64,000 nucleotides of DNA from Cupriavidus sp. (GTDB lineage: Bacteria > Pseudomonadota > Gammaproteobacteria > Burkholderiales > Burkholderiaceae). Location: contig JAPSLP010000001.1 in assembly GCA_031180665.1 (NCBI GenBank), forward strand, positions 295,259 through 359,258. The letters run 5' to 3'. Position 1 is the stretch's first letter, and each line of letters begins with the position of its first letter. Under the pieces are notes generated by a model. The model was not told where the DNA came from. It was given only the letters and a program-made list of their open reading frames with translations, and searched no databases. Positions 7,084-39,055 of the stretch are shown in pieces. Position numbers and translations under genes: made by a program.

Positions 7084-7120
7084 GATGGCGGGCCCGTTTC
7101 CGGGCCGCATCCAATTGGCG

Positions 7121-8122: not shown

Positions 8123-8174
8123 GATCGGGAAGGCAGGATTGAAAAGGAATTCGTTCGATGGCGGCACATGCCGC

Positions 8175-9335
8175 TCATTGCAGTCCGAGGACGGCAAGCG
8201 CCAGGGCCTGTGCCCGCGGCACGAAGGTGGAGAGTTCGCAGTATTCGCGCTCGGTATGCGGATGGCCGCCGACCGGCCCGGTGCCGCACAGCGTCGGCGT
8301 ACCGGCCGAGCTGGTCAGGCCGCTGTCGGCCGCGCCACCGGTGAACTCGCCCTCGACGGTGAAGCCGACGCGTTCGGCGCTGCGCTGATAGAGCGAGAGC
8401 AGGGCTTCTGGCGTCGTCGCCATCGGCATCGTGCGGCGCATGTCGGTGATGCGCCCGCGCGTACGGGGAATCGACTCGGCTTCGACGATCTCGCGAATCC
8501 GGCCGTACAGCGCGTCCATATCGGTATCGGCGGTGAAGCGCACATCGAGCTGCGCCTTGGCGTGCGGCGCGACCATATTCGGCACGATGCCGCCCTGTAT
8601 GCAGCCGACATTGGTGGTGACGCCCGACGCGGCATCGGTCAGGGCATGCAGTTCCAGGATCTTGCGTGCCAACGCGTCGATCGCGCTGGCGCCATGGGCA
8701 TGGTTGATGCCGGAATGCGCCGCCACGCCGTCGACCTCGAACTCGACCACCATCGAGCCCTTGCGGCCTGTCACCAGGTTGCCGCTGACGCGGCCTGGCT
8801 CGGCATTGAAGACGGCGCGCACTTCGCGGGCAACCGCCATGATCCGCTCGCGCGTCGCAGGCGAACCGATCTCCTCGTCGCACGAGAAGAACAGCCGCAG
8901 CGGCGGCGCCTGGCGGCCCAGCCGCGCCAGCGCCTGCGCAACGAACACATTGAGCACCAGGCCGGATTTCATGTCGGCGACGCCGGGACCGTAGGCGCGC
9001 CCGTCCTCGACGCGGAAGGGCCGCCTGGCCACGGTGCCTTCGGGGTAGACCGTATCCATATGTCCCATCAGCAGGACCGGCAGGCCCTCCCCGGAGCCCG
9101 GCACCTGCGCATCGAGGCAAACGCCGTATCCGGGCACGGCATCCAGACGCACGGCGATGCCGGCGGCTTCCAGATGCGCGCGCAGGACCTCGGCGACGGC
9201 CTGCACGCCCGCTTCATGGCGGCTGCCGCTGTCGATGTCGACGATCTTCTGCAGCAAGTCCTGCATCGCCTGGCTCTGGCTGTGCAGCCAGTCCAGCAGC
9301 GCCTGCGCGCCGTGGGCTACTTCTCTATCCTGCAT
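8175..9335 (-). CDS. M20 family metallopeptidase (glutamate carboxypeptidase-like)
   Basis: LMGHMDTVY, GPGVADMKSG, DEEIGS, GGAADS motifs. Confidence 0.9.
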   Translation of the reverse strand: MQDREVAHGAQALLDWLHSQSQAMQDLLQKIVDIDSGSRHEAGVQAVAEVLRAHLEAAGIAVRLDAVPGYGVCLDAQVPGSGEGLPVLLMGHMDTVYPEGTVARRPFRVEDGRAYGPGVADMKSGLVLNVFVAQALARLGRQAPPLRLFFSCDEEIGSPATRERIMAVAREVRAVFNAEPGRVSGNLVTGRKGSMVVEFEVDGVAAHSGINHAHGASAIDALARKILELHALTDAASGVTTNVGCIQGGIVPNMVAPHAKAQLDVRFTADTDMDALYGRIREIVEAESIPRTRGRITDMRRTMPMATTPEALLSLYQRSAERVGFTVEGEFTGGAADSGLTSSAGTPTLCGTGPVGGHPHTEREYCELSTFVPRAQALALAVLGLQ

Positions 9336-9400
9336 GGGGTTCCTGTTCGCGGCGGTGGACCGTTCGCGATAAAAGACGGATGAAGCCCGCTGTGAAACGG

Positions 9401-9439
9401 GTATTGCAATAGTGGTATCATCATGCAATACGTATTGCA
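9401..9439. promoter_or_regulatory. Candidate RpiR operator (three GTATTGCA/TGCAATAC half-sites)
   Basis: GTATTGCA at 9401-9408 and the perfect palindrome TGCAATACGTATTGCA at 9424-9439, in the gap between divergent genes. Confidence 0.5.
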
Positions 9440-9449
9440 GGGTGTCAAT

Positions 9450-10358
9450 ATGACGAATTCCCGCAAGGAAACCGCCGATCATGGCGCCACGCTGCTGGAC
9501 CGGCTGGCGCGCGAAGCGGCCACGCTGACCGCGCGCGAGCGCGATCTGGCCGATGCGCTGACGCGCGGCTATCCCCATGTGCTGCTCGAATCGGCGACCG
9601 CGCTGGCCGCGCAGCACGGCACCAGCGCATCGACCGTCGTGCGCTTGTTTGCCAAGCTGGGCTATGCCAGCTATGCCGACGCCCAGCGCGAAGCGCGGGC
9701 CAGCGTGACGGCGGCGCTGCCGACCGCGGGGCAGCGTGCGCCGGCGCTGATCGGCGGCAAGCGGACCCTGCGGGCGTGCCTGGACGATGCATTCATGCAC
9801 GACCAGCACAACCTGACCGCGACGCACGAATCGCTGGATATCGCCGCCTTCGAAGCGATCGCGCGTCTGCTGGCCGGTGGCAAGGGCCGGCTGTTCATCC
9901 TGGCGCAGAAGAACAGCGCGCCGGTCAGCGCCTGGTTGGCGCTGCATCTGAACATGTGCCGGCCCAATGTGCAGGAGCTGGGGGCCGGCGCCGTGACGGC
10001 CACCGACGCCATGCTGTGGGTGCAGCCGGAAGACGTGCTGCTGACCTTCAGCGTCCGGCGCTATTCGAGCGCGCCGGTCAGCATCGCCCGTGCCTTCAGG
10101 GAGCGGGGCGCCCGCGTCGTGGCCATCTGCGACAGCCCGGCCGCGCCGCTGGTGCCGCTGGCGGACCACCATCTGCTGGTGCGCACCGCCAATGCGTCGC
10201 CATTCGACTCCTATACGGCCGCCTTCTTCCTGTGCAATGCCCTGGTATCGGCCGTCGCCCAATTGCGCCAGCCGGCCGTGATCGAGGCCCTGCAGCGGCG
10301 CGATGCGCTGTGGCAGGCCTTCGAGATGGACCCGGTGGAGGGCTTGCGCAAGGGGTAG
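9450..10358 (+). CDS. MurR/RpiR family transcriptional regulator
   Basis: HTH (SATALAAQHGTSASTVVRLFAKLGY) plus SIS domain (LLTFSVRRYS, VVAICDS). Confidence 0.92.
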   Translation: MTNSRKETADHGATLLDRLAREAATLTARERDLADALTRGYPHVLLESATALAAQHGTSASTVVRLFAKLGYASYADAQREARASVTAALPTAGQRAPALIGGKRTLRACLDDAFMHDQHNLTATHESLDIAAFEAIARLLAGGKGRLFILAQKNSAPVSAWLALHLNMCRPNVQELGAGAVTATDAMLWVQPEDVLLTFSVRRYSSAPVSIARAFRERGARVVAICDSPAAPLVPLADHHLLVRTANASPFDSYTAAFFLCNALVSAVAQLRQPAVIEALQRRDALWQAFEMDPVEGLRKG

Positions 10359-10507
10359 GGCGCGAGCACGCGGTAGCTGTCGCTGCCGCGCGCCGTGTCG
10401 GCTTCGACCGATTCCGACCGAATGTGGACACCTGCGCGTGGCTTGGCGTCGGGATTGTGTGCGCCTAAGCTAATGGTCTGGTTGGCATCCACGGGGAGAC
10501 AAGGACG

Positions 10508-11683
10508 ATGAACCGGCGTCTGGCAGGAGGGACCGGGCTGGGTATGGCGGCCGTCGCACTGGCCGCCGGCGCGGCGTGGCTGCTATCGTTGCCGCCCGCC
10601 ACCGCACCGGCCGAGCCGCCGCCCATCGCCGAAGCGGAGCAAGCCGCCACGCTGGCGGCGCTCAAGCCGCCCAAGCGGCCGCGCCCGGTCGTCGCCATCG
10701 TCGGCATCAACGATGCCACGGAAACCACCGACTATCTGATGCCTTACGGCATCCTGCGCCGCGCCGATATTGCCGAGGTGGCGGCATTGGCGACGCAGCC
10801 CGGACCGATGAAGCTCTATCCCGTGCTGCAGGTCCAGCCGGATGCGACGATCGCGCAGTTCGATGCGCGGCACCCCGAGGGCGCCGATTACGTCCTGGTG
10901 CCGGCGATGAGCCGCGACGACGATCCGACCGTGCTGCAATGGATCCGCAGCCAGGCGAACAAGGGCGCGACGGTGATCGGCATCTGCGCCGGCGCCAAGG
11001 TCGTGGCCGCGAGCGGCCTGCTCGACGGCAAGCGCGCCACCACCCATTGGTACTACCTGAACGAGCTGCTCGAGAAGCATCCCACGGTGCGCTACGTGCC
11101 CGACCGGCGCCTCGTCGTCGATGGCCGGGTCGCCACGACGACCGGCATTTCCGCTTCGATGCCGATGACGTTGACGCTGATCGAAGCCGTGGCCGGCCGC
11201 GACAGGGCAGAGGCGGTGGCGCGCGAGCTGGGCCTGCCGCATTGGGATGCGCGCCACGACAGCGACGCGTTCACGTTTACGCGGCCCTTCGCCTTGACGG
11301 CGATCGGCAATACGGTGGCGTTCTGGAACCGCGAACGGCTCGGCATCGCGCTGCGTCCCGGGGTCGACGAGGTATCGCTGGCGCTGGTGGCCGACGCGTG
11401 GTCGCGCACCTACCGTTCCCAGGCCATCTCCTTCGCCGGGCAGGCGGGGCCGATCCCGACGCGAAACGGCATGCGCCTGCTGCCCGAGCACGTCGGCAAC
11501 GACTGGGGGCGGGGACCGACCATTACCCTCGCCGCGGAACCGCAGCCGGCGAGGGCGCTGGACGCGGCCCTGAACGGCATCGGCCAACGCTACGGCGCAC
11601 GCACCGAAGCGCTCGTCGCCATGCAGCTCGAATATCCAGGCGAATACCCGCGCTCCGAGGCGCGAACCGACCCCATGCAGTAA
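10508..11683 (+). CDS. DJ-1/PfpI family protein with N-terminal membrane anchor
   Basis: ETTDYLMPYG, VIGICAGA, ATTHW, TTTGISAS motifs. Confidence 0.85.
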   Translation: MNRRLAGGTGLGMAAVALAAGAAWLLSLPPATAPAEPPPIAEAEQAATLAALKPPKRPRPVVAIVGINDATETTDYLMPYGILRRADIAEVAALATQPGPMKLYPVLQVQPDATIAQFDARHPEGADYVLVPAMSRDDDPTVLQWIRSQANKGATVIGICAGAKVVAASGLLDGKRATTHWYYLNELLEKHPTVRYVPDRRLVVDGRVATTTGISASMPMTLTLIEAVAGRDRAEAVARELGLPHWDARHDSDAFTFTRPFALTAIGNTVAFWNRERLGIALRPGVDEVSLALVADAWSRTYRSQAISFAGQAGPIPTRNGMRLLPEHVGNDWGRGPTITLAAEPQPARALDAALNGIGQRYGARTEALVAMQLEYPGEYPRSEARTDPMQ

Positions 11684-26875: not shown

Positions 26876-26969
26876 CGGACATTACTGTTTGGCTCCAACA
26901 TCCGTCGCCCCAGCGGTTTTCGGTGGTCCGGCTTGGGGCCAAAGTCAGACGTCAGGCCGAGCGTGCTTT
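26876..26969. repeat. Relic IS1202-type terminal sequences (an IRL-like and an IRR-like copy)
   Basis: 26876-26900 matches 29684-29708 at 15/25 positions; 26925-26969 aligns with 28154-28197 with one indel, sharing CCGAGCGTGCTTT exactly. Confidence 0.5.
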
Positions 26970-27264
26970 GCACTTTGGCGGCGATGTCCCAGTACGTGCC
27001 CAAAGCCGTGGGCAAGGTCACGCCATCGGCCCATAGCTCGATCCGTCATCTGGGTATTCGGGCACCTCGATGGCGCGGGCGATCGGCTGAGGTGGGCCGG
27101 CCCGTTGGCCAGCAGTCAATTACCGATTCCGAAGAGACGACCGACATCGTGCGCGTCGCCCGCGCTGCAGAAGAGCTCCAAGCCGCCAGAGACATACTTG
27201 GCACGCTGAACTTCCCCTCTGCTATACTTGTCCCATTAGTTGAACAACTCTTTGGGAGAGGGCA

Positions 27265-27528
27265 ATGCGCACCATTCACTTCTCCGATGCCCGTAACAAC
27301 CTCAAGGCGGTCATCGACCAGGCGATCGACGATCACGACGCCATCCTGATCACGCGCCGGGACGCCCCCAACGCGGTGATCATGTCTCAAGAACAATACG
27401 ACAGCTGGATGGAGACGATGTATCTCATGAGCAATCCGGCGAATGCCAAGCGCCTGATGGAGTCGATCGAGCAATTGCGCCGCGGTGAAGGTACGGAGCG
27501 CGAACTGATCGAGCCGGACACTGAATGA
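27265..27528 (+). CDS. yefM: Phd/YefM antitoxin
   Basis: MRTIHFSDARNNLKAVIDQ...NAVIMSQEQYDSWMETMYLMSNPANAKRLMESIEQL; TATACT -10 upstream. Confidence 0.93.
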   Translation: MRTIHFSDARNNLKAVIDQAIDDHDAILITRRDAPNAVIMSQEQYDSWMETMYLMSNPANAKRLMESIEQLRRGEGTERELIEPDTE

Positions 27529-27794
27529 CGCGAAAAGTCGTCTTCACGCCCCACGCCTGGGAAGAATACGTATGGTGGCAGACGCAAGACAAGAAGATTC
27601 TCAGACGCATCAACCAGCTGGTTGGTGAGTGTCAGCGCGAACCCTTCGAAGGAATCGGCAAACCTGAGCCGCTGAAGGGAAATCTCGCCGGTATGTGGTC
27701 GCGGCGTATCGACGACGTCAATCGGCTGGTCTATGACGCCAACGATGATGCCCTGCGCGTTGTCAGCTGCCGCTACCACTACGGCGACAAATAA
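27525..27794 (+). CDS. yoeB: Txe/YoeB mRNA interferase toxin
   Basis: FTPHAWEEYVWWQ, GIGKPEPLKGNLAGMWSRRIDDVNRLVY, CRYHY; ATGA overlap with yefM. Confidence 0.93.
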   Translation: MTRKVVFTPHAWEEYVWWQTQDKKILRRINQLVGECQREPFEGIGKPEPLKGNLAGMWSRRIDDVNRLVYDANDDALRVVSCRYHYGDK

Positions 27795-28157: not shown

Positions 28158-29708
28158 TGGCTTCGGCTAATTTCAAATGTCAGTCCGAGCGTGCTTTTTG
28201 TGGGGTGCCCGTAACGCAGTCAAGCTGGCCGTGGTCGATGCCGCCTCAACTGGGTGGGGCGCCGGTACTGGCAATGGCCCGCTCCAGATCCAGCCGATTG
28301 ATCTGCCACTTGCGCTTAGTGTGCGGCGCGGCTTGGGCGCGGGTTGGATCTTGGCCACTGAGCGTGCGTGACGGCCCCGCGGTTTGCCGATCGTCCCTGA
28401 GCGCCTGCACCTTGGCGGCGATCTCCAGCACGTGCCCCAGCCGCTCGTGCGCGACGATGTCCCCTTGCCGGATGGTTTCCCGCGGATCGAACACGCTGTA
28501 GGGCAGGGCAGCGCCATCGGCCCACAGCTCGATCCGGCCATCGGGGCATTCGGCCACCTCGATGGTGCGCCCGATCAGCCGGCGGTGTTCCGGCACATTG
28601 ACCAGCGATAGACGACCTTGCCGTACTGCAAAGTCAGGCTCTGCGAGACCTTGCGCCATTCGCGCCAGGTAAAGATCCGCTCGAGGTCTTCATCGGCGCG
28701 CACCGGCCGGTGCGCATTGAACTCGCTTCGGGGCACCTTGGCAAAGCGCGCATTGAACTCAGCCATGAAGCTCGCGGCAAAGCCGTTGGCGGCGGGGAGG
28801 GTGGCAATACCGCGCAACCGCAGCTCCTTGACCAGCCGGTCCTGCAGCACGCCGTGCATCCGCTCCACGCGCCCCTTGGCCTGGCTCGAATTGGCGGACA
28901 GGATGTCGATGTTCAGCTCGAACAGCGCGCGCCCAAACTGCGTATAGCCGCGCCCGTCCGGCCCGTCCTTGGCATTGACGCGGAAGATGCCGGCCTTGTC
29001 GCTGTAGAACGCCACCGGCTTGCCGTGGCGTTCCACGTAGGCCCGCGTCGCCGCAAAGTACGCGAAGGTCGATTCGGTCGGCACAAACGACAGCTGCATC
29101 AGTTGGCCGGTGGCGTCGTCGACGTAGACCAGCAGCGTGCAGGCCGGCGCGCGGTCCTCGAACCAGCGGTGATCGCTGCCATCGATCTGGATCAGCTCGC
29201 CATAGCAGGCGCGCCGGTGCCGCGGCTGGTAGACCTTGGGCGGGCGCAGCTTGCGCGGGACCCAGAAGCCGGCGTCGATCATGATCCGGCGCACGCAGGC
29301 CCTCGACAGTTCGATGCCGTGGCATTGCCGCAGCTTCTCCCAGGCCAGCGTGGGGCCGAAGTCAGCGTAGGTGTCGCGAATCAGGCCGCGTACGCGCGCT
29401 TCTAGACCGGGCGGCAACTGCCGATTGCCCGGACGACCGCGACTGCGCGAAATCAGCCCGCTAGGGCCATCTTCCTGCAATCGCAGCACCAATCGCCGGA
29501 CTTGCCGCGCGCTGATACCCAAGCGCTCAGCGGCACGCCAACGCGCCAGATGGCCGTCGGCGACCGCCTGAACGACCTTGAGTCGATCCAACTCCCGCGT
29601 GCTCATCGTCACCCATCCCTGATCGTTCACCGCTGGCTCCTCGAGAATCCAACGAGCCGTTGACGGTATCGATCATGGGCGACGTGACATTTCTATTCAT
29701 GCCTAACA
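28158..29708 (-). mobile_element. IS1202-family (ex-ISNCY) insertion sequence
   Basis: Left end reads TGTTAGGCATGAATAGAAATGTCAC on the - strand from 29708; imperfect right end TGGCTTCGGCTAATTTCAAATGTCAG at 28158-28183; DDE transposase inside. Confidence 0.78.
28246..29630 (-). pseudogene. IS1202-family DDE transposase with a 1-bp deletion near 28609
   Basis: HTH; IQIDGSDHRWFE, VYVDDATG, YSDKAGIF, AKGRVER. Frame changes at QYGKVVY/LVNVPEHRRLIG. Confidence 0.85.
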
Positions 29709-29713
29709 TCTGC

Positions 29714-29741
29714 GTCGCCGATAATGTTTGTTATGTTAAAT
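29714..29741 (+). other. dif: dif (XerC/XerD) chromosome-dimer resolution site
   Basis: GTCGCCGATAA-TGTTTG-TTATGTTAAAT. The XerD arm is identical to the E. coli consensus TTATGTTAAAT, and KOPS polarity converges here. Confidence 0.85.
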
Positions 29742-30508
29742 CAAGTGACAGGCGGCAATGGTGTCCCTCTTTACCCGTCGTTAACTTGCACAAATTTGTT
29801 ACTACTGTTTGCGTAAATTTGTTCCGCGATTCAAGCAGTGCGTTGCCGCGGGCGACCACGGGCAAAGAGAGTAGCTGCGAGTTAGTCGATGCAGTGGCCG
29901 CCGCACGCAGCTTGTGGCCTGCAAGATATGAATCTTGGCCGCGGGATTATGCTCATCTGCCTTTTTCCTCCGGACAATATGGCCGGAAACAAGGCATCAA
30001 CGGCGTTTATCTTGCGTGCGGCGCTTCAATATTGAGCGGCTGCATCCCACGCGATCTTGCGCGGGTTCTCGACGGAGCGCACCAATGACACGACTGAAGG
30101 ACCCGGTACTACAGGCTCATGGCCGGCTGGACCGCTGGCGACAGTTCGATCGGGTATCCGCCGATCTGGTCCAGGCCGGTGTGCTGTGGCCCCTCAAGGG
30201 GCATCCCGACACCCTTTCCCGTACCAATGTCCGGTGGCGGTCAAGGATGAGATGGCGTCGCACGCGCCATTCATTGGGTAGGCGCAAAGCGGCATGAGCC
30301 TGCGCTATGGAAGAAAGGGAGGTGGCAACCGACGCGCTTTCTCCTGACCGCGTGCCGATTGAAGCCATGCACCGGTTGGCCTATGAAGGACTGGACCTTA
30401 CATATGTCACCTGCTTAGCTGACGTGCTCGCCGTATAGTGCCGCCTCGATCCGTGGCGGCGCCTTAGGAGACACAGTGGTTACCGTGCCCTTTCGCAGAA
30501 CATGTGGA

Positions 30509-33500
30509 CTAGAGGCGCAACGACTGCTTCGCAGCTTCGACATCGGCACGCTCGGCATCGCGCATCCATCCTTCGGAGACGCGCATCAGCATGGCCGAGG
30601 TACGGGGGAACTCGTGCGTGGCGGCGGCCCAATCGCGAGCCTGCTTTGCCAATTCGCGCTCTTGGTCCCCGCCCTCCCCAATGCCTTTGCTATAGACCCC
30701 CCTCATGTTGAAGCGCTCAACTGCCAGTCCATTCTCTAACTCGTCTGACGCGATGCACTCGATGGCATGCCGTACGGCCTCATGCGGCCATGCACCGTCG
30801 AGTTGACTTGCCGGTGCATGAGCCAGCAAGTGCCCAATCCTACTGTCCGTGACATCCACCCGGTCCATTTCCTTAGCCAAATCGCGCACTTCACCGCACC
30901 ATTGCAGAAGAATCTTTCCATCAACATCATTACCAACTTGCCCAGGTAGTAGCTGAAGGCTCCCAAGCAGGTCGTATGCCGCTACTGCCAGACGGCGTTC
31001 GTTTTCCGACACCTCTCTCCCTTCTGTGTTGGCCGCCTTAAAGACAGCACAAATTGCATCCATAAACCACCCCGCTCGCTCTACCATCAGTCGATGCAAT
31101 GTGAGAGGCTTTTTTCTTCGGCCGAAGATCGGGAGGTATGTAAACTCCCGCTTGGCAAGTTCTTCGGAAGCAACATCGTTTCTGGTCTCCAGTTCCTCGA
31201 ATACCTGTTCAAGATAGTACGCGGTCATGGTTCCTCCCCGACCTCCAGATGTGTTGATTTCTAGAATCGCAGAATCCAGAAGGTGCAAAAGCGTTTCCGA
31301 TTTGACCTCTTTCAGGCGACCGACGGCAGTTTCAATTGCCGCCATCGGGCGCCCACGCGACGCGTAGTTTTCGATGGCAAAGAAAAGTTCCTCGGTATTT
31401 CCCTTTATCGAGTATGAGTGCTTCTGTGCCCAGAACGCTTCGTTGACCTCTCGCCCAAACGAACTGACCACTTCCCAGGCCCGCATGTTCTCGTCCAGCG
31501 CAGTTAACAGGCGCGCCGTTCGGCTTGGTTCTACTTCAAATGCGGCAACGATATCTTGAACATCGATGGCGAAACTGTCGCCAAACCGCGTCAAGCCTTC
31601 GGCGATAATTGTCGCGCTCGCGACATCAAGTCCGTCCCCCGCTTCTACCGCCAGCCGTAAAAGCGTCGCCAGTTGTTCTCTTGGTAACCGCAGAGCCTGT
31701 GCTGCCACAGCTACACTGTGTGGCAGCTTTACGCGCTTTGCCAAATCAATTAGTCCCTGCGGACCGCTACTTGCGGCAATCGCTTGAATGGCCTCGCAGC
31801 GTGCTACTTCAACCGGCGCCATAGGGTCGCCTGATGTGGCACCTAAGCCCGGTACCGTCGGCAACCAGTCATCAAAGAGCCAGATATGCTGAAGCAACGG
31901 GTCATCCGGCTTGAATTTCTCAATAACAGCATCGACCCGGGTCAACGCATCAGGCCTCAGAGCCCAGTCTGTATCTGCAAAGGTTCGGTGCCGATTCGCT
32001 TCGCGCCGCAATGCGTCCCATATCGGAAATCGGATTCCGCTAGTAACTTCTGCAAGCACGGTATCCAGCGCACTGAGCATACTGTCCAAAGACTCTGCGG
32101 GAAATTCGCTCATTGCACCAATGAGCGTTGCCCATCGCTCCGGGTCCTGCCCAACGTGCTCCAGCGCGAGGCGAACGACTGCGGTCTGGCTCTCCCAAAC
32201 CACGCCATAAGTCAGCGCCTCCTCCTCGGCATCACCGAACTCGCGGAATTTCGGCGTAGCCGTTGGGCTCGATGTGTCATGCGAGCGAGGCAGCAGCTTC
32301 GTGAGCAACGGCCAAGCAATGGCAGGTACCGCCTTGACGATATGTGCAAGAACCGCCGTTCTCTGTTTCGCACGGGCGCTGGTATTGGGTGACCACGAAA
32401 GAAAGATGGCGCGCAAGCTGTTGATGGGGCGATTGGAGAGCGACCCTCCCGGATCGACCGCTGCCAGACGCGCGAGACACATGGCAGAACGAAGCAGAAG
32501 CTTCCGGTCCCAGGCAAGCGTCTCCAGTGCCCACAGCAGCCCGACGTGGTAGGTCTGGGGAGTGAGAAAGCCCCTATGTTCGTCGAAGATCGGTTTGATT
32601 GCCGCAGGGTCGCCCTCAAGCAGGCGCTCGAGGGCCTCAAGAAAAGGGATGGGAGCGGCCTCCGCGAGCAGGGCGAGGTTATCTTGCAGACTCGCAAGTA
32701 ACCTATAGTCATTTGACAGACCCGGCAGGCCTCGGACGATACCGTTCACGAATTCTTGAGGTGTCGAGCCCTGCACGGTGAAATCAGCCTGCTTGTGCAA
32801 CACTGCCATATGCAAGAGCATGGTCATCATCCCTTCACGAAGCCAGCTGCTATGGGTATCCTGCCTCTCCGACCTCGGCCTGAACAGATCATCCTCTTTC
32901 GGCGCCGGCGGAATGTAGGAGAAAACCTTTGTTGCCGCGGCAGAGAACTGACGCAGGTGCTCTGGCCCGATGAGATGACCGAGGTGGACAAACGCGTCCA
33001 CAGATGAACGCATGGTCCACACGTCACCCACGTGGTCCACTGGCGGATCTTTCAACTTCGCGAGCTGCCGTAGTGGAGCCTCGACCATCTCATATTCGGC
33101 ACACCTAGCAAGCGTGCAGAGTATCGCCCGGTCCGAGTCGCTGGAGGTTGCCCAGGCGCCCGCGAACAATGCGGGCAACAGTGGCTCCGCACGGTCCATC
33201 CATTCCGGCCTTTCAGCGGTACCGCTTGGCCTCTGGCGTGCCAGCACGGCCAGACTCCGCCCGCAGTGCCGCGCAATTTCGTATCCCTGCTCCTCAGTGA
33301 ATCCCATGGCAACGAACGCCTTGCCGAGAGCTGAGCTGTGCGGTCGGTTGAGCAGGACATGAGTCGACCGCCTTTCGTCCGCGCCTGCACTGACGATGGT
33401 GGGACCGTATTGGGAAAGCAGCCCCGCGAAGCCCCGTGCCTGTCCTCGGGGCAGGAAGATAAGTCCTTTCTTGCCGACAAGTGCTCGCGCGGCTTCCTCG

Positions 33501-34264
33501 GTATCCACGATTAAGGTACGCGCTTCGAGAAAAAAGCGTACGGACGGTTCAGCCCGACGAATCGCTGCGACGGCGAAAGCCAGAACTTCGTCCGGAGAAT
33601 CGGCCGCGTAAGCAAGGCTAGCAGTAGCTTCATTGAGTCCGCGCAAAAGCTCTTCGCCTTGCGGCTCCCGACCGGCAAGCAGAACTTCCTCAACAAGAGC
33701 CGGGGAAAATCTGTTTGAGAACTCTTCCCAGAACTCATCAATGCTCCGCGCCCCTACTGAAGGCATCAGCCTCAGCTCGTATCTCGCCCAGCGGGCGGCA
33801 ACTGCTGGGCATGCGCTCAACCATTCTTCCAGCATCGCACCATCGATGTACCTGACATCCTTCCACTCTCCTTGCTCGCGCTTCGCCCGCACCCAATCTG
33901 GCAACTTCACCGTGGGGTTATCCCAAGTCCTTGGAGAAACGAAAACAAATGTCGTTTCTTTCCGCGCAGCCTCGTCAACCTGCTTTGTTCGCTTCTCGTA
34001 GTCACTGGTAGCCTTTCCGGCTGCGCCCTCAGTAACGCCGAACTCCCAGATTGACCTCCCATCCGGCACGTATGGAGGCATCCCAGCCGCTTCCAGCACG
34101 CCGTCGAAGCCCCGAACCTGCCCCTTGTCACCGCTTGGGAAGCGGATGTCGGTGATGTTCGCCGCGGTTGCTCGCACTAAGTCGGCGACCAGCGCCGGGA
34201 AACTGGTTCTAGCTTGAAGTGTATCTGCCCACTGTTGGAGGTTTGTCGCTGTGACCCAACGCAT
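30509..34264 (-). CDS. Uncharacterised 1251-aa protein: REase/Mrr-like N-terminus, degenerate STAND-like region, long helical C-terminus (candidate defence protein)
   Basis: Long clean ORF in lower-GC DNA with AAGGGG RBS. GFDG...SIWEFG...KATSDYEKR...FVFVSPR...VRYIDGAMLEEWL; no intact Walker A. Confidence 0.8.
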   Translation of the reverse strand: MRWVTATNLQQWADTLQARTSFPALVADLVRATAANITDIRFPSGDKGQVRGFDGVLEAAGMPPYVPDGRSIWEFGVTEGAAGKATSDYEKRTKQVDEAARKETTFVFVSPRTWDNPTVKLPDWVRAKREQGEWKDVRYIDGAMLEEWLSACPAVAARWARYELRLMPSVGARSIDEFWEEFSNRFSPALVEEVLLAGREPQGEELLRGLNEATASLAYAADSPDEVLAFAVAAIRRAEPSVRFFLEARTLIVDTEEAARALVGKKGLIFLPRGQARGFAGLLSQYGPTIVSAGADERRSTHVLLNRPHSSALGKAFVAMGFTEEQGYEIARHCGRSLAVLARQRPSGTAERPEWMDRAEPLLPALFAGAWATSSDSDRAILCTLARCAEYEMVEAPLRQLAKLKDPPVDHVGDVWTMRSSVDAFVHLGHLIGPEHLRQFSAAATKVFSYIPPAPKEDDLFRPRSERQDTHSSWLREGMMTMLLHMAVLHKQADFTVQGSTPQEFVNGIVRGLPGLSNDYRLLASLQDNLALLAEAAPIPFLEALERLLEGDPAAIKPIFDEHRGFLTPQTYHVGLLWALETLAWDRKLLLRSAMCLARLAAVDPGGSLSNRPINSLRAIFLSWSPNTSARAKQRTAVLAHIVKAVPAIAWPLLTKLLPRSHDTSSPTATPKFREFGDAEEEALTYGVVWESQTAVVRLALEHVGQDPERWATLIGAMSEFPAESLDSMLSALDTVLAEVTSGIRFPIWDALRREANRHRTFADTDWALRPDALTRVDAVIEKFKPDDPLLQHIWLFDDWLPTVPGLGATSGDPMAPVEVARCEAIQAIAASSGPQGLIDLAKRVKLPHSVAVAAQALRLPREQLATLLRLAVEAGDGLDVASATIIAEGLTRFGDSFAIDVQDIVAAFEVEPSRTARLLTALDENMRAWEVVSSFGREVNEAFWAQKHSYSIKGNTEELFFAIENYASRGRPMAAIETAVGRLKEVKSETLLHLLDSAILEINTSGGRGGTMTAYYLEQVFEELETRNDVASEELAKREFTYLPIFGRRKKPLTLHRLMVERAGWFMDAICAVFKAANTEGREVSENERRLAVAAYDLLGSLQLLPGQVGNDVDGKILLQWCGEVRDLAKEMDRVDVTDSRIGHLLAHAPASQLDGAWPHEAVRHAIECIASDELENGLAVERFNMRGVYSKGIGEGGDQERELAKQARDWAAATHEFPRTSAMLMRVSEGWMRDAERADVEAAKQSLRL

Positions 34265-34437
34265 CTAACGTCCCCTTATTGTTAAAAACGCAAACTTGCA
34301 AGCCCGAGGGTCCCGCCGATTACCTGTGCGGTTCCGCGGACTGCAAGAAACCCCTTGATACCGTTAGCTTCGCCAGATGCATTTGGGGCTCCCCGTTGCT
34401 CGCGGTTCTTGCCGACCTTCTTGTGTCAGTCGACATG

Positions 34438-36684
34438 TTACAGGGCCGGATTTGCTTCCTCGACCGCCTTTTGCACATCTGATATCGCCGACGTGAGAAG
34501 TGACTTGACCTCTTCCATAAATTCGAGCGCAGAAGCATCACCACGCGCATCGGGTACCGGAATCCATCGCTCGTAAATCCCCTCCACTCGCATTTTGCGG
34601 TCAAATGTGCTTCCCGTCCCTCGCAACGCATACGCACCAAGCCAAATTGGCTGCGGCAGTTCACGCAGACGCCGGTGGCTCAGCTTGGGCAATTGTTGTG
34701 CGACCGCCGCCTTGACTCGGTCAATGGTTTCACGTTTTTGCTCGGGCGTCGGATTGCCCGACCAGGCAATGGGACTCTCGAGAAATCTGGATAGGGACGA
34801 CGAAAGCGCAGCAATAAGATTAGAAGTTGGCTGAAGCACAAAGCCATCGTCCCAGCCTTCCGCGTAGCGTCGCGTCAGTGCCTTCACAGTCTGCCAAGGA
34901 CGCGGTTTGAAATGCGGATGCGGCGACAAGCCAAGTAGACCCTGCCATTGTTGGCGAAAATCACGTGCGGCCTCTTGGATTGCAAGAACGAGGTTGTCCA
35001 TGCTGTACTGCGGGAATGCGACTGGCTCAAACACCGGCGGTTGTGCGGCCACCAGCATTGCGAGCAACCTATTCAGTTCAGGCTTTGCCGGCTTCGGGTC
35101 GAGCTCATGAATTTTGCCGACGTAAAACGTGTTGCGCTCGAGGTGTTCCAACAGATAGCGCGCGGCGTCCCCGGAGACATTCTTGGCCAACTGATTCTCG
35201 GCAATATTGCGCAGGCCGCCGAAGACATGGTCTAGCTTCGCCTGCCCCCTGAGGTTATCGCCCCGGACCGTGTCCATATGTGTGAAGACTACGGCAAGCT
35301 TACGCGTGTAGCCCGAGTTCACGACGCTTTCGAGAGCCTTGCCTGCGGCGAAGCTGGTCATTCCGTTCTTCGCGCTATCAACCAGCAGTACAACGTCCGC
35401 GTCGTGGAGTAGCGACAAGACTCCCTCCGGTAGGTCGGCCGTCGCGTTTGCCTTGTGCCCCAAGCCTTCTGTGTCGACCAAAACAAGCCGGGGCTTATCT
35501 TCCGCCCATATTGGCCGAAAGGGGCCTGCTACCCTCAGACCCGTCACCAGCGGAGTGAGCAGTTTGCCAAATGCCTGATAAGCATTGCCCGAGAATAGGC
35601 GGACCAACCGCAGAAACGCCTCCCGCCCGTCCGCACCTGACTTGAGATGCCATGCGGTCGGCCAGCCCGTGGTGGTCTTTTCAAAGCGACCGACAGAAAC
35701 GCCTTCGAATTTGGTCTTGACCTCATCCAGCACGTCCGAGACCAATTCAAGATAGGCATCTGAACTGACGGCCTGCTCCTCGATCAGGTCGAGTGCCACG
35801 CCACGGTCCTCGGCATTCATGTCAGCAATCACGCCGTGGGCAGCCTCAACTTCCGCCTTGGCGGAAATGGCAAGCGACTGAATGCGCGTTAGAAAGCCCT
35901 CAAGCGTCTGCTGCAACGTAGCATGTTCGTCCGGAAGCAACGTGGGGGCGTCGTCCGAGTCGGTCGCCGCTTCTTCGTCGACATCCTCATAAGGGTCAAT
36001 GTCGCCATCATCGTCGAGGTCTCCTAGCAGATACTTGAGCCGGAAGCGCATATCGCTCTTTTCCAGGAACGCTCGCGCAACCTGCCGTGTATCGCCTTGC
36101 ACGGCCTCAACAATGGCAGCGGAAATCGACTCCTCTATCTCGAAGCGAGCTTCATGTTCCGACATGAACGTGACAACGGCTTCATACTCGCCGTCGCGCA
36201 GCACCAATTCGGAGGGAAACGTAGTAGTGCGATTAACCGAGGTCGACGGAAACCGCTCGGTCTTCGGATTCGTACCCATCAGCTGTCGCACAAGGGTGGT
36301 CTTTCCTGCCCCCGGCGCGCCCATCAGCACGACACGCGCATATCCTTCGGCACTCGTTGGCAATGGCAATAGCTTGTCGCAGAGCTGCCGCGCCGTTGTC
36401 ACGCGAGGCTCAATCTCGCTATAGAAGATGTCGACAACGCGGGGGTCAAAGCGCCGGGCGGCTTCGCCGCGGGCACCCAGCGACCACAACGCCTCGTCCC
36501 TCAGTAGTTCGTTGAGTTCGCTGACGAGTCGTTGTGCGAGCGCCTCATCTTCGGTTCCAAGCCCCTTGCGAGTTTTCTTGCCTGGCCGGTTGCTCGTGTC
36601 GCTTTTGAGCGGATGCCGGAATTCCACCAACCAGCCCTTTCGTCCTGGATTGCGCTTTGCGGCTGCCGTGTAGGGACCCGCCAT
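34438..36684 (-). CDS. Dynamin-like GTPase with N-terminal integrase-arm-like DNA-binding domain (candidate defence protein)
   Basis: G1 GAPGAGKTT, G2 STSVNRTTT, G3 DTEG, G4 THMD; N-terminal GWLVEFRHP...GKKTRKGLGTEDEALA; GGAG RBS before ATG 36684. Confidence 0.8.
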   Translation of the reverse strand: MAGPYTAAAKRNPGRKGWLVEFRHPLKSDTSNRPGKKTRKGLGTEDEALAQRLVSELNELLRDEALWSLGARGEAARRFDPRVVDIFYSEIEPRVTTARQLCDKLLPLPTSAEGYARVVLMGAPGAGKTTLVRQLMGTNPKTERFPSTSVNRTTTFPSELVLRDGEYEAVVTFMSEHEARFEIEESISAAIVEAVQGDTRQVARAFLEKSDMRFRLKYLLGDLDDDGDIDPYEDVDEEAATDSDDAPTLLPDEHATLQQTLEGFLTRIQSLAISAKAEVEAAHGVIADMNAEDRGVALDLIEEQAVSSDAYLELVSDVLDEVKTKFEGVSVGRFEKTTTGWPTAWHLKSGADGREAFLRLVRLFSGNAYQAFGKLLTPLVTGLRVAGPFRPIWAEDKPRLVLVDTEGLGHKANATADLPEGVLSLLHDADVVLLVDSAKNGMTSFAAGKALESVVNSGYTRKLAVVFTHMDTVRGDNLRGQAKLDHVFGGLRNIAENQLAKNVSGDAARYLLEHLERNTFYVGKIHELDPKPAKPELNRLLAMLVAAQPPVFEPVAFPQYSMDNLVLAIQEAARDFRQQWQGLLGLSPHPHFKPRPWQTVKALTRRYAEGWDDGFVLQPTSNLIAALSSSLSRFLESPIAWSGNPTPEQKRETIDRVKAAVAQQLPKLSHRRLRELPQPIWLGAYALRGTGSTFDRKMRVEGIYERWIPVPDARGDASALEFMEEVKSLLTSAISDVQKAVEEANPAL

Positions 36685-36694
36685 GTTATTCTCC

Positions 36695-36789
36695 AATGTT
36701 CCAGAATGTTCCACAAACTCTGCTTGAGCCTAATAATAACGCGGCCAGCCGAAATGTCAACGAATTTGCGGAACATCATGGAACATCAT
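36695..36789 (-). promoter_or_regulatory. Sigma70-type promoter of the GTPase gene flanked by inverted tandem GGAACAT repeats
   Basis: -35 TTGACA (36760-36755), 16-bp spacer, -10 TATTAT (36738-36733); AATGTTCCA twice at 36695 and 36705; GGAACATCAT twice at 36770 and 36780. Confidence 0.65.
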
Positions 36790-36856: not shown

Positions 36857-38622
36857 TCACGGTACGAGGGGCATGCGGCTTGACGACCCGATTCCATCGG
36901 AGAATGCCTCCCCGATTTGCCGTGCCCGCTTCACTTCATCGCTGTGCAAATATACGGAAGTTGTGGACACCGACGCATGTCGCAGATTGTCCCGAACACT
37001 GGTCAATTCCACGCCTCGGCCTAGAGCATGCGTGGCATGCGTATGCCGCATCCAGTGCGGACTGGCCCGGCGCAGCTTATCCGCCGCCGCGGGATGGTCC
37101 GCACCAATGACCTCCGCGGCCAGCTTGAAGAACCGCTTCACCACATGCCATAGCCGCGTACTGGTGATGCCGATATCCGGCTCGCCGGTCAGGTCACCGA
37201 CCAGGGCAATCTCCGGGCGCCACAGCCTCCGGCTGATCGGCAGCCCGCGTTCCGTCAGATGGCACTCCAACGCCCGCCGCGCCAACGGCGGCAATGCCAC
37301 CTTGCCGCTGCGCCCGCCCTTCCCTGTCAACTTGAGCCATTCGTCCCCCTGTCCGTCGGTCTCGATATCGCCGAGCCTTGCCGCGATCAATTCGCTAGCC
37401 CGCAGTCCGGTGGCATAGCCGAAATCCAGCACAAAGCGCAGGCGCTGCGCGGCGGCCTCCTCCCAACCGTAGGACCACTCCAGCCCGTCGGCGATGGTCC
37501 GCACCAGCTTCCATTCGCCTTCGGTGAAGGCGCGTGAATTGTCCAGCGCCGCCGTGCGGCCACCGCCGCGGACCTTGATGCCCGCGAACGGATTGGCGAG
37601 GACGTACCGCTGCTGCACCAGCCAGCGGAACATCGCACCAAGAATCGAGAGCGCATGGGCGACCGAGCGTGCCGATAGTGCGCCGCTGAATGGCCGCCAG
37701 TCCGGCGACGAACGCGGGCGTGGCGGACCGACCCACCGCTCGCGCGGCGTGGGCCGACGCAGGAAGGCGCGATAGGCGACGGCGTCCTCGGTGGTCAGCG
37801 ACGACAACGGCCGTTGCCGCTCGACGATCGCCCACAGGATCAGCCGTTCCGCTTCCTTGCGGTAGGTGCGATGGGTGGCGGGCGATTCGTGCAGCGCCAG
37901 CCAGCCCTGCACCGCCTCGTAGTCGTTGTCCGCGGTCAACGTGCAACTCTCACGCGGCGCGCGAAACCGCCCTCGCGAGCCGTCCACTTGATAAGGCAGG
38001 CGCAACTGCTCCCATGGCACGACGACACTGCGCCGCTCCTGCACGATCAGCGCGCGTGCGCGCTCGGTCAATTCGGGATGCGCGGCGAAGAACGCCTCGA
38101 TCTGCCTGGCGCTCGTGGCGCCCAGCCTCGGGATGGCCGTCCACCAGCGGCGGCGCCTGGGCACGCGCACGGTCAGCGCCGCGAGCGTATCGATACCGTG
38201 GGCGCGCAAGGCGGCGACGGCGCGCGCCGGTAGCCAGCGACCGATGTCGTCGGTGATCGCGGGCCGCGGCGGCGGGAGCGTGCGCAAGACCTCAATGGCA
38301 CGGCCGGCAGCCCTGCCCTGCTCCACCCGCTCGGACGCCGGCATCTCGAACAATGCGGCCAGATCTTCGCGGCCGCGCTCGCGTGCGAGCGAAGCAAGCC
38401 GGCGGCGAATGCGGCCAAGCACGGCGCGCGAGATTGGCCGCGCGCCCTCTCCTCACCCAGGTATTGCGCCACGGCTTGCCGGGAGCTAAGGCCGGCATGC
38501 CAGGCGCGCAGCGCGGCCAGGGAGGCGGCATCGGGGAATGCCGTGGAAGCATCGGCGGAGGACGTATCCATACCCGTGCTGGAGGCGGAGGCGGAGTCCG
38601 GTAGGGTCAGTCGCGCTTTCAT
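36857..38622 (-). pseudogene. Tyrosine recombinase (DUF3701-type phage integrase family) with a 1-bp deletion near 38432
   Basis: N-part FPDAASLAALRAWHAGL...GQS joins RAVLGRIRRRL in another frame. Catalytic GLRASEL, GKGG, HWMRHT, LRHASV, TTSVY are intact. Confidence 0.85.
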
Positions 38623-38649
38623 GGGCGCCAGTTTAGCGCATCGAAATGG

Positions 38650-38679
38650 CTATTACGATAAGGATACTTATCGTAATAG
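38650..38679. other. Perfect palindromic recombinase core site (11-bp arms, 6-bp spacer)
   Basis: CTATTACGATAA-GGATAC-TTATCGTAATAG, 28 bp upstream of the recombinase start. Confidence 0.7.
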
Positions 38680-38700: not shown

Positions 38701-38961
38701 CTACGGCTCGGCGTACCAACTCTGTGGCCATCCCGGAATGAGAAGGATCGGATCGCCCTTTGCATCCGTTCCGCCTTCCACGAAATGCAGCCTGACGCCG
38801 TTCACGAGCGCAACGCCGTGATCAAGCGTTGCATGGACAGCGGCTGCGTCCGCTCCGGAAGGAAAACGGCCGGCTGCGGCCGAAGCTGAAGCTGTAGCGA
38901 TGCCGGCGGCCGCGCAGGCCGCGAGCAAGGAACGGAACAATCCGGACTTGGGGTACGACAT
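38701..38961 (-). pseudogene. Truncated alpha/beta hydrolase (N-terminal fragment only)
   Basis: Signal-like start, VNGVRLHFVEGG...PILLIPGWPQSWYA, then an abrupt stop at the recombinase-site region. Confidence 0.75.
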
Positions 38962-39055
38962 GATGATCCTTTGTTGTTTGAAGAGAAGCGCTGTACCAAT
39001 CGGGCCGCTAACAGCAATATTTAGGACCGAATCGGTTCCCAAATAGGGAAAAAAA

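What the first reader, a model, noticed from the sequence alone, without database searches (positions are those of the whole stretch)
30509..36789. Candidate undescribed anti-phage system: arm-domain dynamin-like GTPase plus REase/degenerate-STAND protein, in an island at dif
Seen: two large co-oriented genes (748 aa and 1251 aa, 173-bp gap) behind one near-consensus promoter. The DNA is visibly lower in GC; my hand count gave 31/60 at line 31021 versus 40/60 at line 59461. The pair lies between a dif site and a tyrosine recombinase with its core site. Established: dynamin-like GTPases (Eleos/LeoABC) and nuclease-STAND-solenoid proteins (Avs/AVAST) each act in phage defence, and such genes are common cargo of integrated elements. 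Inference: this pairing is not a system I can name. It may be a sensor-effector unit in which the helical protein senses a phage component and the REase fold cleaves DNA, with the DNA-binding GTPase acting as partner or regulator.
Basis: partly seen in the sequence, partly recalled or inferred. Interest (0 to 1): 0.9.

Follow-up and report, generated by a model that had tools for sequence, protein, structure and literature searches.

The report
Two unrelated single-gene cassettes, not a pair
The two large genes are real and sit in foreign, low-GC DNA, but relatives elsewhere almost never occur together, so they are two independently mobile, uncharacterised single-gene cassettes (both probably phage-defence genes) that happen to lie side by side, not a two-gene system.

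Summary
There are two co-oriented minus-strand genes (748 aa and 1251 aa, 173-bp gap), one near-consensus promoter, GC of 0.54-0.60 against about 0.67, a dif-like site on one side and a tyrosine recombinase on the other.

None of 61 loci with a GTPase homologue carries the 1251-aa gene. Only 1 of about 29 loci with a 1251-aa homologue has the GTPase nearby, and there it is antiparallel. The closest relatives (93% and 86% identity) also lack the partner. DNA homology defines two separate modules, 30280-34329 and 34426-36787, joined by about 97 unique bases.

The GTPase is a self-contained cassette. It has an integrase-arm-like (DUF6538-like) N-terminal domain, a dynamin-like GTPase and a helical stalk. 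Its own promoter is bracketed by four conserved TGTTCC/GGAACA sites in 37 of 48 loci, and the site sequence covaries with residue 21 of the N-terminal domain.

The 1251-aa protein belongs to a very large family (3318 clusters at 50% identity) with no Pfam, NCBIfam, PADLOC or PDB match. It has a small N-terminal alpha/beta domain with invariant D54, E74 and K84, a central alpha/beta domain with no Walker A motif, and a long HEAT-like solenoid with a variable segment.

Both genes recur in defence islands and integrative elements. Defence function is inferred, not shown.

The parts
34426..36787 (-). GTPase cassette: operator, promoter and gene, which travel together as one module
   Evidence: blastn to L102 (86% aa relative, different context) is 78% identical over exactly window 36787-34426. 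Homology ends 12 bp after the stop codon and starts at the first operator repeat.
36770..36785 (-). Operator sites 1 and 2: TGTTCC-N4-TGTTCC (36785-36780 and 36775-36770), about 10 bp upstream of the -35
   Evidence: Read. The same pair lies 23-25 bp upstream of TTGAC in 39 of 48 non-identical homologue upstream regions.
36733..36760 (-). Sigma-70-type promoter TTGACA-16-TATTAT
   Evidence: 11 of 12 consensus matches. A TTGAC at the same relative position is conserved in homologues.
36697..36712 (-). Operator sites 3 and 4: GGAACA-N4-GGAACA (36712-36707 and 36702-36697), inverted relative to sites 1 and 2, just upstream of the GGAG ribosome-binding site
   Evidence: Read. The pair is present in 45 of 48 homologue upstream regions, against a background of 0.04 per kb.
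34438..36684 (-). GTPase gene, 748 aa. Arm/DUF6538-like DNA-binding domain at aa 1-62, dynamin-like GTPase at about aa 106-520 (P-loop GAPGAGKTT, DTEG, THMD) with a helical insert at 251-326, and a helical stalk at 533-743
34330..34425 (.). Junction between the two modules, with no homology to the relatives of either
   Evidence: Lies between the end points of the blastn matches.
30280..34329 (-). 1251-aa gene module: the gene, about 65 bp upstream and 229 bp downstream
   Evidence: blastn gives 92.8% to L101 over 34274-30280, 91.5% to L009 over 34329-30280, and 84% to L010 over 34321-30515. None of these loci has a GTPase. The X4 metagenome contig covers only 30280-34274.
30509..34264 (-). 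1251-aa protein. N-terminal alpha/beta domain at aa 1-165 (invariant D54, E74, K84, R92); central alpha/beta plus helical/winged-helix-like region at about aa 170-460 with no Walker A; alpha-solenoid at about aa 470-1190 with a variable stretch at 700-1050; conserved C-terminal motif ERFNMRG...EGG.QE
30270..30427 (+). Remnant (last ~52 codons, frameshifted) of a DUF6538-type tyrosine integrase, convergent with the 1251-aa gene
   Evidence: tblastn of the L101 integrase gives 67-79% identity for residues 537-588. The full integrase is present at this position in L101 and L009.
29714..29741 (+). dif-like XerC/XerD site
   Evidence: and the GC-skew turnover.
36857..38422 (-). Tyrosine recombinase (DUF3701 + Phage_integrase). 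Its N-terminal ~60 codons are out of frame upstream of 38431
   Evidence: A related metagenome contig has an extra G at 38431.
38652..38677 (.). Perfect palindrome ATTACGATAAG-GATA-CTTATCGTAAT next to a truncated epoxide-hydrolase-like ORF. Probable recombinase core site and island edge

Best explanation
The region is a mosaic of two independent, horizontally mobile single-gene cassettes that landed next to each other in variable DNA beside a replicon's dif site.

Cassette 1 (34426-36787) encodes a stand-alone dynamin-like GTPase. Its integrase-arm-like N-terminal domain most likely binds the four TGTTCC/GGAACA sites that bracket its own strong promoter, so the gene autoregulates. The GTPase and stalk are the working part.

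Cassette 2 (30280-34329) encodes a stand-alone 1251-aa protein. It is built like a one-protein effector-sensor: a small conserved N-terminal catalytic-looking domain, a central alpha/beta switch-like domain without an NTP-binding loop, and a long HEAT-like solenoid with a variable central segment that probably recognises a target.

Both are most likely single-gene anti-phage or anti-mobile-element functions, because both recur in defence islands and integrase-bearing elements in many phyla.

What is shown: independence of the two genes, module boundaries, the operator, fold classes and neighbourhoods. What is inferred: DNA binding by the N-terminal domain, autoregulation, nuclease activity, target sensing and defence itself.
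For: No co-occurrence:
- 0 of 58 metagenome loci plus 3 genome loci with a GTPase homologue have the 1251-aa gene.
- Of 24 genome-collection loci and 4 looked up earlier with a 1251-aa homologue, only L018 has the GTPase. There it is downstream and antiparallel, and it is absent from the syntenic locus L024.
- The nearest relatives lack the partner. P0003 (93%) is preceded by a 281-aa gene and a UvrD-like helicase. P0124 (86%) is followed by small HTH genes.
- Neither gene has a recurrent neighbour family.

Separate modules:
- Boundaries come from blastn and from metagenome contig X4.
- A remnant of a second integrase lies at 30270-30427.

Operator:
- 37 of 48 upstream regions have both site pairs in the same order and spacing.
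- Residue 21 E-to-D goes with GGCACA instead of GGAACA at site 4, in 5 of 7 against 0 of 39 loci.

Folds.

Neighbourhoods:
- Around the GTPase: BREX BrxC, type I RM, MADS mad2/3, PbeA, Dnd/Ssp, pAgo, HEC-01, PD-Lambda-2, PD-T7-5, AbiEi, integrases, resolvases.
- Around the 1251-aa gene: Wadjet JetC/D, CBASS cyclase + 2TM, type I RM, PD-Lambda-4, PDC-S68, five integrases. On a Rhizobium plasmid there is an RT-SLATT pair and a Shedu fragment.

Family sizes: more than 1684 and more than 753 clusters at 90% identity, and 3318 clusters at 50% identity for the N-terminal domain.
Against: - No phenotype data exist. Defence is inferred from neighbourhood only, and the neighbour tallies are not normalised against a genomic background.
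- The two genes are co-oriented with no predicted terminator between them, so in this strain they may be co-transcribed.
- The nuclease assignment for the N-terminal domain has no sequence or structure match, and its motif is not a canonical (D/E)xK.
- Similarity of the GTPase N-terminus to DUF6538 is weak (best E 0.0097; hhalign probability 19%).
- The covariation rests on only two independent E-to-D lineages.
Confidence: 0.8

Rival explanations
1. The two genes form a genuine, recently assembled two-gene sensor-effector system. The helical protein senses a target and cleaves, and the GTPase acts as partner or regulator.
For: The genes are co-oriented with a 173-bp gap, one strong promoter and no terminator-like site between them. 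Identical 11.9-kb contigs with both genes occur in two metagenome studies.
Against: The partner is present in 0 of 61 and 1 of about 29 (antiparallel) homologue loci. The closest relatives of each gene lack the other. Module boundaries are separate. The two metagenome contigs are identical in sequence, so they represent one strain and are not independent support.
Confidence: 0.05
2. The GTPase is a DNA-binding sensor-regulator, used like BrxR/CapW-type regulators. It controls whatever cargo lies downstream of its promoter, which here is the 1251-aa gene.
For: It has a conserved DNA-binding-like domain and an operator at its own promoter. The first downstream gene is co-oriented in about 23 of 34 informative loci and differs every time. 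No terminator was found in this window.
Against: About 11 of 34 loci have a convergent gene directly downstream, so the cassette is complete on its own. A co-orientation rate near two thirds is ordinary for bacterial neighbours. Cassette homology ends 12 bp after the stop codon. A 750-aa dynamin-like machine is unusual for a mere regulator. Relatives of the 1251-aa gene function without it.
Confidence: 0.1
3. One or both genes serve the mobile element itself (integration or excision control, maintenance or exclusion) rather than phage defence.
For: The N-terminal domain of the GTPase resembles an integrase arm-type domain. Integrases lie directly beside the GTPase in the window, L006 and L008, and beside the 1251-aa gene in L101 and L009. 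Both genes occur on plasmids.
Against: Only 3 of 134 neighbours of the GTPase and 5 of 120 neighbours of the 1251-aa gene are integrases. The repeats sit at the gene's own promoter, not at element ends. Neighbours are dominated by known defence systems.
Confidence: 0.1

Closest known systems
Bacterial dynamin-like proteins (SynDLP, BDLP, Campylobacter DynA/B, B. subtilis DynA, LeoA of Eleos/LeoABC)
   Same: A large GTPase domain with G1, G3 and G4 motifs, followed by a helical stalk. These proteins are the top Foldseek hits. DynA and Eleos are linked to phage defence in the literature (listing; Eleos from my own knowledge).
   Different: This protein has an N-terminal integrase-arm-like DNA-binding domain, is encoded as a single gene without LeoB/LeoC-type partners, and carries its own four-site operator. 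The Pfam Dynamin_N match is below the gathering score (25.3 against 27). The PADLOC LeoA match is not significant (E 0.026). No membrane-binding element was identified.
Integrase arm-type N-terminal domains (Pfam DUF6538; Arm-DNA-bind families)
   Same: A three-stranded sheet plus a helix. The motif GRK.W.V.FR...GKK.R.LGT.D..EA aligns with the DUF6538 N-terminus of the integrase next to the L006 homologue. The putative binding sites are short direct repeats phased by 10 bp, as arm sites are.
   Different: The domain is fused to a GTPase rather than a recombinase. The sites flank a promoter rather than an att site. Sequence similarity is weak.
Single-protein effector-sensor defence proteins (Avs/AVAST; Dsr2, which is SIR2 + HEAT-like solenoid)
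   Same: Overall layout of the 1251-aa protein: a small N-terminal effector-like domain, a central alpha/beta module, and a long C-terminal alpha-solenoid with a variable stretch. It also shares the defence-island context.
   Different: There is no Walker A/B STAND NTPase in any member, no SIR2 domain, and no hit to any Avs, Dsr or other PADLOC/NCBIfam model. The N-terminal domain has no detectable relative.
PD-(D/E)xK nuclease fold
   Same: The N-terminal domain has an alpha-beta-beta-alpha-beta-type secondary structure, with invariant D54 at a strand start, E74 in the next strand and K84 in the following helix.
   Different: The motif is WEFG followed by K ten residues later, not (D/E)xK. 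No Pfam or PDB match exists, and the isolated domain could not be searched by fold.

Membership tests
   The partner is present in 0 of 61 GTPase loci and in 1 of about 29 loci of the 1251-aa gene (antiparallel, and absent from the syntenic relative). Nearest relatives lack the partner.
   Homology blocks are separate, 30280-34329 and 34426-36787, with a unique junction between them.
Dynamin superfamily | GTPase domain with G1 (GxxxxGK[ST]), G3 (DxxG) and G4 ([TN]KxD-like) motifs | tested here: met
   GAPGAGKTT, DTEG and THMD are invariant in 20 homologues. MMR_HSR1 matches at 2.1e-7.
Dynamin superfamily | Match to the curated family model (Pfam Dynamin_N) above the gathering score | tested here: not met
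   25.3 bits against a cut-off of 27.
Dynamin superfamily | Fold: enlarged GTPase domain plus helical stalk/bundle | tested here: met
   Model pLDDT is 77. Foldseek hits are SynDLP 2e-7, DynA/B 2.4e-4, MxA, Drp1, dynamin, BDLP and LeoA.
Dynamin superfamily | Membrane binding and nucleotide-dependent self-assembly | not testable with these tools
   Needs biochemistry.
Eleos / LeoABC | LeoA-type GTPase with LeoB/LeoC partner genes | tested here: not met
   The PADLOC LeoA match has E 0.026 over the P-loop only. No conserved partner exists.
MADS (mad1-mad8) | Membership of the Mad8 family within an eight-gene operon | tested here: not met
   The mad8 match has E 8.6e-4 over about 100 P-loop residues only. 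The operon is absent in the window. mad2 and mad3 appear only as neighbours in 2 loci. The MADS description comes from PMC13662399.
Avs/AVAST (STAND NTPase defence proteins) | Central STAND NTPase with Walker A and Walker B motifs | tested here: not met
   No P-loop at the strand-helix junction (AADSPDEV) in any of 14 members down to 26% identity. No NACHT, NB-ARC or AAA Pfam hit and no Avs PADLOC hit.
Avs/AVAST (STAND NTPase defence proteins) | C-terminal repeat or solenoid sensor | tested here: met
   An alpha-solenoid at about aa 470-1190. Foldseek hits importin-beta, CAND1 and Pds5 at E about 1e-4.
PD-(D/E)xK nucleases | Core fold with a D...(D/E)xK catalytic motif | tested here: inconclusive
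   Secondary structure and invariant D54/E74/K84 are compatible. The motif is non-canonical, and no Pfam or PDB match was found. The isolated domain could not be fold-searched.
Integrase arm-type DNA-binding domain (DUF6538) | Sequence match to the family model | tested here: inconclusive
   Nine of 26 members match DUF6538, but only at E 0.0097 or weaker. hhalign to an integrase N-terminus gives E 0.0012 and probability 19%.
Integrase arm-type DNA-binding domain (DUF6538) | Binds short phased direct repeats | not testable with these tools
   Indirect support only. Four conserved 6-bp sites have 10-bp phasing in 37 of 48 loci, and residue 21 covaries with site sequence.
Chromosomal dif site | 28-bp XerC arm, 6-bp spacer and XerD arm, one per replicon, at the GC-skew switch | tested here: met
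   The XerD arm TTATGTTAAAT is present. Only two such sites exist in the assembly, on different contigs. Cumulative GC skew turns over at about 17-27 kb of the window.

The most novel reading that the evidence does not exclude
Each cassette is a new kind of single-gene immunity.
1. The GTPase would be an autoregulated dynamin-like GTPase that uses a domesticated integrase arm domain to read DNA. It reads its own operator and possibly invading DNA.
2. The 1251-aa protein would be an NTPase-free effector-solenoid sensor, from a family of thousands of clusters with no described domain.

A still bolder reading, not excluded, is that the GTPase cassette acts as a portable inducible promoter-sensor that also drives whatever defence gene lies downstream, here the 1251-aa gene.
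Probability: 0.4. Interest if true: 0.8.

Novelty: new variant of a known kind. Interest (0 to 1): 0.55.

Why it matters
The proposed two-gene system should not be pursued as a unit, and cloning the genes only together would mislead. What remains is still useful.

Both protein families are large, phylogenetically wide and unnamed. Both sit repeatedly among known defence systems. Neither has a model in Pfam, NCBIfam or PADLOC that recognises it as a defence gene.

The GTPase cassette offers a compact, testable case of an integrase DNA-binding domain recruited to a dynamin-like motor. It comes with a defined four-site operator and a natural specificity switch: E21/GGAACA against D21/GGCACA.

The 1251-aa family would extend the effector-plus-solenoid design of Avs and Dsr2 to a protein without an NTPase.

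Tried and rejected
- Pfam, NCBIfam and PADLOC scans of both proteins gave only generic P-loop/GTPase hits for the GTPase and nothing for the 1251-aa protein.
- PDB sequence-profile searches with the full-length and N-terminal profiles gave nothing useful.
- Foldseek of the 1200-residue model against PDB and against viral structures returned only solenoid matches, which mask the N-terminal and central domains.
- A Pfam scan of the 21 N-terminal domains at E up to 10 gave no consistent family.
- I looked for an empty site by searching 30 relatives with the right flank. The flank is not conserved at species-representative level, so the island limits could not be set that way.
- No direct repeats flank the island.
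- I looked for a conserved regulatory region upstream of the 1251-aa gene. Only the closest relatives share about 65 bp, and no clear promoter was found.
- I looked for RNA-seq to test co-transcription. Only DNA metagenome runs hold the sequence.
- The weak mad8 hit was followed up and is generic P-loop similarity.
- Literature searches found no paper describing either family.

Full report
**1. Observation**

The window has two large co-oriented ORFs on the minus strand. One is at 30509-34264 (1251 aa). The other is at 34438-36714 (758 aa from GTG). The gap is 173 bp.

A TTGACA-16-TATTAT promoter (11 of 12 consensus positions) lies at 36760-36733. No terminator-like hairpin was found in the gap. 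GC is 0.54-0.60 across 30-37 kb against about 0.65-0.70 around it.

A dif-like site, GTCGCCGATAA-TGTTTG-TTATGTTAAAT, is at 29714-29741. It is one of two in the 5.47-Mb, 94-contig assembly, and the cumulative GC skew turns over in this part of the window. A tyrosine recombinase (DUF3701 + Phage_integrase) is at 36857-38422.

**2. The pairing test**

I collected loci for each family separately.

- For the 1251-aa family, a genome-collection scan gave 24 loci from Beta-, Gamma-, Alpha- and Deltaproteobacteria, a Cyanobium and an acidobacterial MAG. Four more came from exact-protein look-ups.
- tblastn with the GTPase found a homologue within 10 kb in only one of them, L018 from Ottowia. There it lies downstream on the opposite strand. 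It is absent from the otherwise syntenic locus L024.
- Paraburkholderia lycopersici (86% identical protein) has no GTPase.
- The 93%-identical protein P0003 is preceded by a 281-aa gene and a UvrD-like helicase.
- For the GTPase family, a metagenome scan gave 58 loci and look-ups gave 3 more. None contains a 1251-aa homologue. The 86%-identical relative is followed by small HTH genes.
- All-against-all BLAST of neighbours found no recurrent partner family for either gene, apart from near-identical loci.
- About a third of GTPase loci have a convergent gene directly downstream. Many 1251-aa loci have a divergent gene directly upstream.

Both are therefore stand-alone genes.

**3. Module boundaries**

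blastn of the closest relatives against the window gives sharp limits.

- The 1251-aa module is 30280-34329. It matches L101 at 92.8%, L009 at 91.5% and L010 at 84% over 30515-34321.
- The GTPase cassette is 34426-36787. It matches L102 at 78%. The match starts at the first operator repeat and ends 12 bp after the stop codon.
- About 97 bp (34330-34425) belong to neither module.
- Metagenome contigs agree. One run (X4) holds only 30280-34274. Two runs (X1, X2) hold identical 11.9-kb contigs with the whole arrangement, which means one strain seen twice and not independent support.
- At 30270-30427 on the plus strand, the window keeps the last ~52 codons of a DUF6538-type integrase (67-79% identity, frameshifted). 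In L101 and L009 that integrase is complete and convergent with the 1251-aa gene.

So the 1251-aa gene arrived with a different integrase from the one now next to the GTPase. The 'island' is a patchwork of at least two element remnants.

**4. The GTPase cassette**

Pfam sees only the P-loop and a sub-threshold Dynamin_N match. The AlphaFold model (pLDDT 77) has three parts:

- a three-stranded sheet plus helix at residues 7-62;
- a GTPase domain with a helical insert;
- a long helical stalk.

Foldseek's best PDB matches are all dynamin-like proteins: SynDLP 2e-7, Campylobacter DynA/B, MxA, Drp1, dynamin, BDLP and LeoA. G1 (GAPGAGKTT), G3 (DTEG) and G4 (THMD) are invariant.

The N-terminal 60 residues are among the most conserved parts of the protein. 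Nine of 26 family members hit Pfam DUF6538, an integrase N-terminal domain, though only at E 0.0097 or weaker. hhalign aligns residues 14-53 with the N-terminus of the integrase next to the L006 homologue (E 0.0012, low probability).

The strongest new result concerns the promoter.

- In 37 of 48 non-identical upstream regions, from proteins 40-100% identical in unrelated contexts, TGTTCC-N4-TGTTCC lies 23-25 bp upstream of a TTGAC -35 element.
- In the same regions an inverted pair, GGAACA-N4-GGAACA, lies between the -10 element and the ribosome-binding site.
- Such pairs occur at 0.04 per kb in all fetched loci, the GTPase upstream regions included, so most of the occurrences counted are these operator sites themselves.
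- In the window the sites are at 36785-36780, 36775-36770, 36712-36707 and 36702-36697.
- Proteins with D instead of E at residue 21, in the second strand, have GGCACA instead of GGAACA at site 4 in 5 of 7 cases against 0 of 39. The D21 group is one clade plus one separate locus.

The only protein that travels with these sites is the GTPase itself. Binding by its own N-terminal domain, and hence autoregulation, is the most economical reading. This is inferred, not shown. An earlier agent in this scan reached the same reading on another genome. I saw that note only after my own analysis.

**5. The 1251-aa protein**

No Pfam, NCBIfam, PADLOC or PDB sequence match exists at any useful threshold. 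The model of residues 1-1200 is good (pLDDT 87).

- Residues 1-165 form a small alpha/beta domain. In relatives down to 26% identity, the invariant polar residues are D54 (GFDG), E74 (WEFG), K84 and R92. D28 is not invariant. This is compatible with a PD-(D/E)xK-like site whose lysine has moved to the next helix. No family or structure match supports it.
- Residues about 200-300 form a five-strand alpha/beta domain. Helices and a hairpin that could be a winged helix follow. The strand-helix junction where a P-loop would sit reads AADSPDEV or similar in every member, so there is no Walker A anywhere in the family. 'Degenerate STAND' is possible but untested.
- Residues about 470-1190 form an alpha-solenoid. 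Foldseek finds only importin-beta, CAND1, Pds5 and the like, and nothing significant among viral proteins.
- Column conservation is about 0.7 up to residue 700, falls to 0.44-0.57 between 700 and 1050, and rises again at the C-terminus. The C-terminus has a strongly conserved motif, ERFNMRG...EGG.QE.
- A profile of the N-terminal domain finds 3318 clusters at 50% identity. The 150 best hits that are listed are about 1250 aa long or shorter; the shorter ones may be fragments, which I did not check.
- Distant relatives on Rhizobium plasmids carry an extra N-terminal HTH and are annotated as transcriptional regulators.

The layout resembles one-protein effector-sensors such as Avs or Dsr2, but it fails the defining features of both.

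**6. Context**

Neighbours of the 1251-aa gene (120 proteins, 22 loci) include:

- five integrases, Wadjet JetC/JetD, PD-Lambda-4 and a CBASS cyclase with a 2TM effector;
- type I restriction enzymes, PDC-S68 and a subtilase.

Neighbours of the GTPase (134 proteins, about 40 loci) include:

- integrases, resolvases, PIN and RES domains;
- BrxC, type I RM subunits, MADS mad2/mad3, PbeA and DndA/SspA;
- a pAgo-associated protein, HEC-01, PD-Lambda-2, PD-T7-5 and AbiEi.

Both genes also occur on plasmids. This is the usual signature of defence-island cargo. I could not normalise it against a background, so it stays qualitative.

**7. Mechanism**

My best estimate is as follows.

- Cassette 1 makes a dynamin-like GTPase that represses its own strong promoter through its arm-like domain. 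On a trigger it assembles and hydrolyses GTP to interfere with infection. What it acts on (membrane or DNA) is unknown.
- Cassette 2 makes a protein whose variable solenoid binds a foreign component and releases the activity of the conserved N-terminal domain.
- The two act independently.

The rivals are a true pair (0.05), the GTPase as a portable regulator of downstream cargo (0.1), and element-maintenance functions (0.1).

**8. Verdict**

The proposed system is not supported. What is there is two uncharacterised single-gene cassettes. One has a well-defined conserved operator. Both are good candidates for separate experimental tests.

Noticed in passing
window 30270-30427 (+): Frameshifted remnant of the C-terminal ~52 codons of a DUF6538-type integrase, convergent with the 1251-aa gene. 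The complete integrase sits at this position in the closest relatives (L101, L009).
   Followed up: yes
window 38431 and 36857-38650 (-): The DUF3701-type recombinase appears frameshifted. The upstream ~60 codons (MKARLTLPD...GQS) are in another frame, and a related low-depth metagenome contig (X3) has an extra G after 38431. Two metagenome contigs (X1, X2) identical to the window, at least one of which may be the sample the window was assembled from, lack that G, so the frameshift is probably not an assembly error.
   Followed up: partly
window 38652-38677 and 38701-39042 (-): A perfect palindrome, ATTACGATAAG-GATA-CTTATCGTAAT, lies directly beside an ORF that starts like an epoxide hydrolase (weak EHN hit, GWPQSWY) and stops abruptly. 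This looks like the insertion point and core site of the recombinase-bearing element. The rest of the hydrolase gene was not found in the window.
   Followed up: partly
window 27265-27794 (+): An intact YefM (Phd_YefM, 4.7e-27) / YoeB (4e-39) toxin-antitoxin pair lies just left of the IS element.
   Followed up: no
window 26930-27090 and 28165-28580: Two stretches are 82-90% identical about 1.2-1.5 kb apart (repeat families D1-D3 and D11). This looks like a partial second copy of part of the IS-like element (HTH transposase ORF 28575-29630) that abuts the dif-like site.
   Followed up: no
GTPase loci L059, L068, L069, L073, L085, L088, L081: Specificity covariation. Proteins with D at residue 21 (LIVDF or WLADF) have GGCACA/TGTGCC half-sites where E21 proteins have GGAACA/TGTTCC. 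In many E21 loci, site 3 alone is GCCACA or GGCACA.
   Followed up: partly
plasmid hits H19-H23 (Rhodococcus): Actinobacterial plasmid homologues of the GTPase (31-32% identity) align only from residue ~95-103 onward. They seem to lack the arm-like N-terminal domain.
   Followed up: no
L099 (Rhizobium tropici pRtrCIAT899b) 6713-10783: A 1356-aa distant homologue of the 1251-aa protein has an extra N-terminal HTH and is annotated as a transcriptional regulator. It lies near a reverse transcriptase + SLATT pair and a Shedu fragment.
   Followed up: partly
L001/L002 (Cupriavidus) and L003 (Stenotrophomonas): In both, the 1251-aa gene lies in an island next to the comM (Mg-chelatase-like)/BMFP/glnK-amtB region. 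In Cupriavidus the comM product is shortened (433 aa against 499 aa), which suggests insertion into comM.
   Followed up: no
plasmid NZ_CP096257.1 (Bradyrhizobium barranii): This plasmid carries distant homologues of both genes, but about 70 kb apart and on opposite strands.
   Followed up: no
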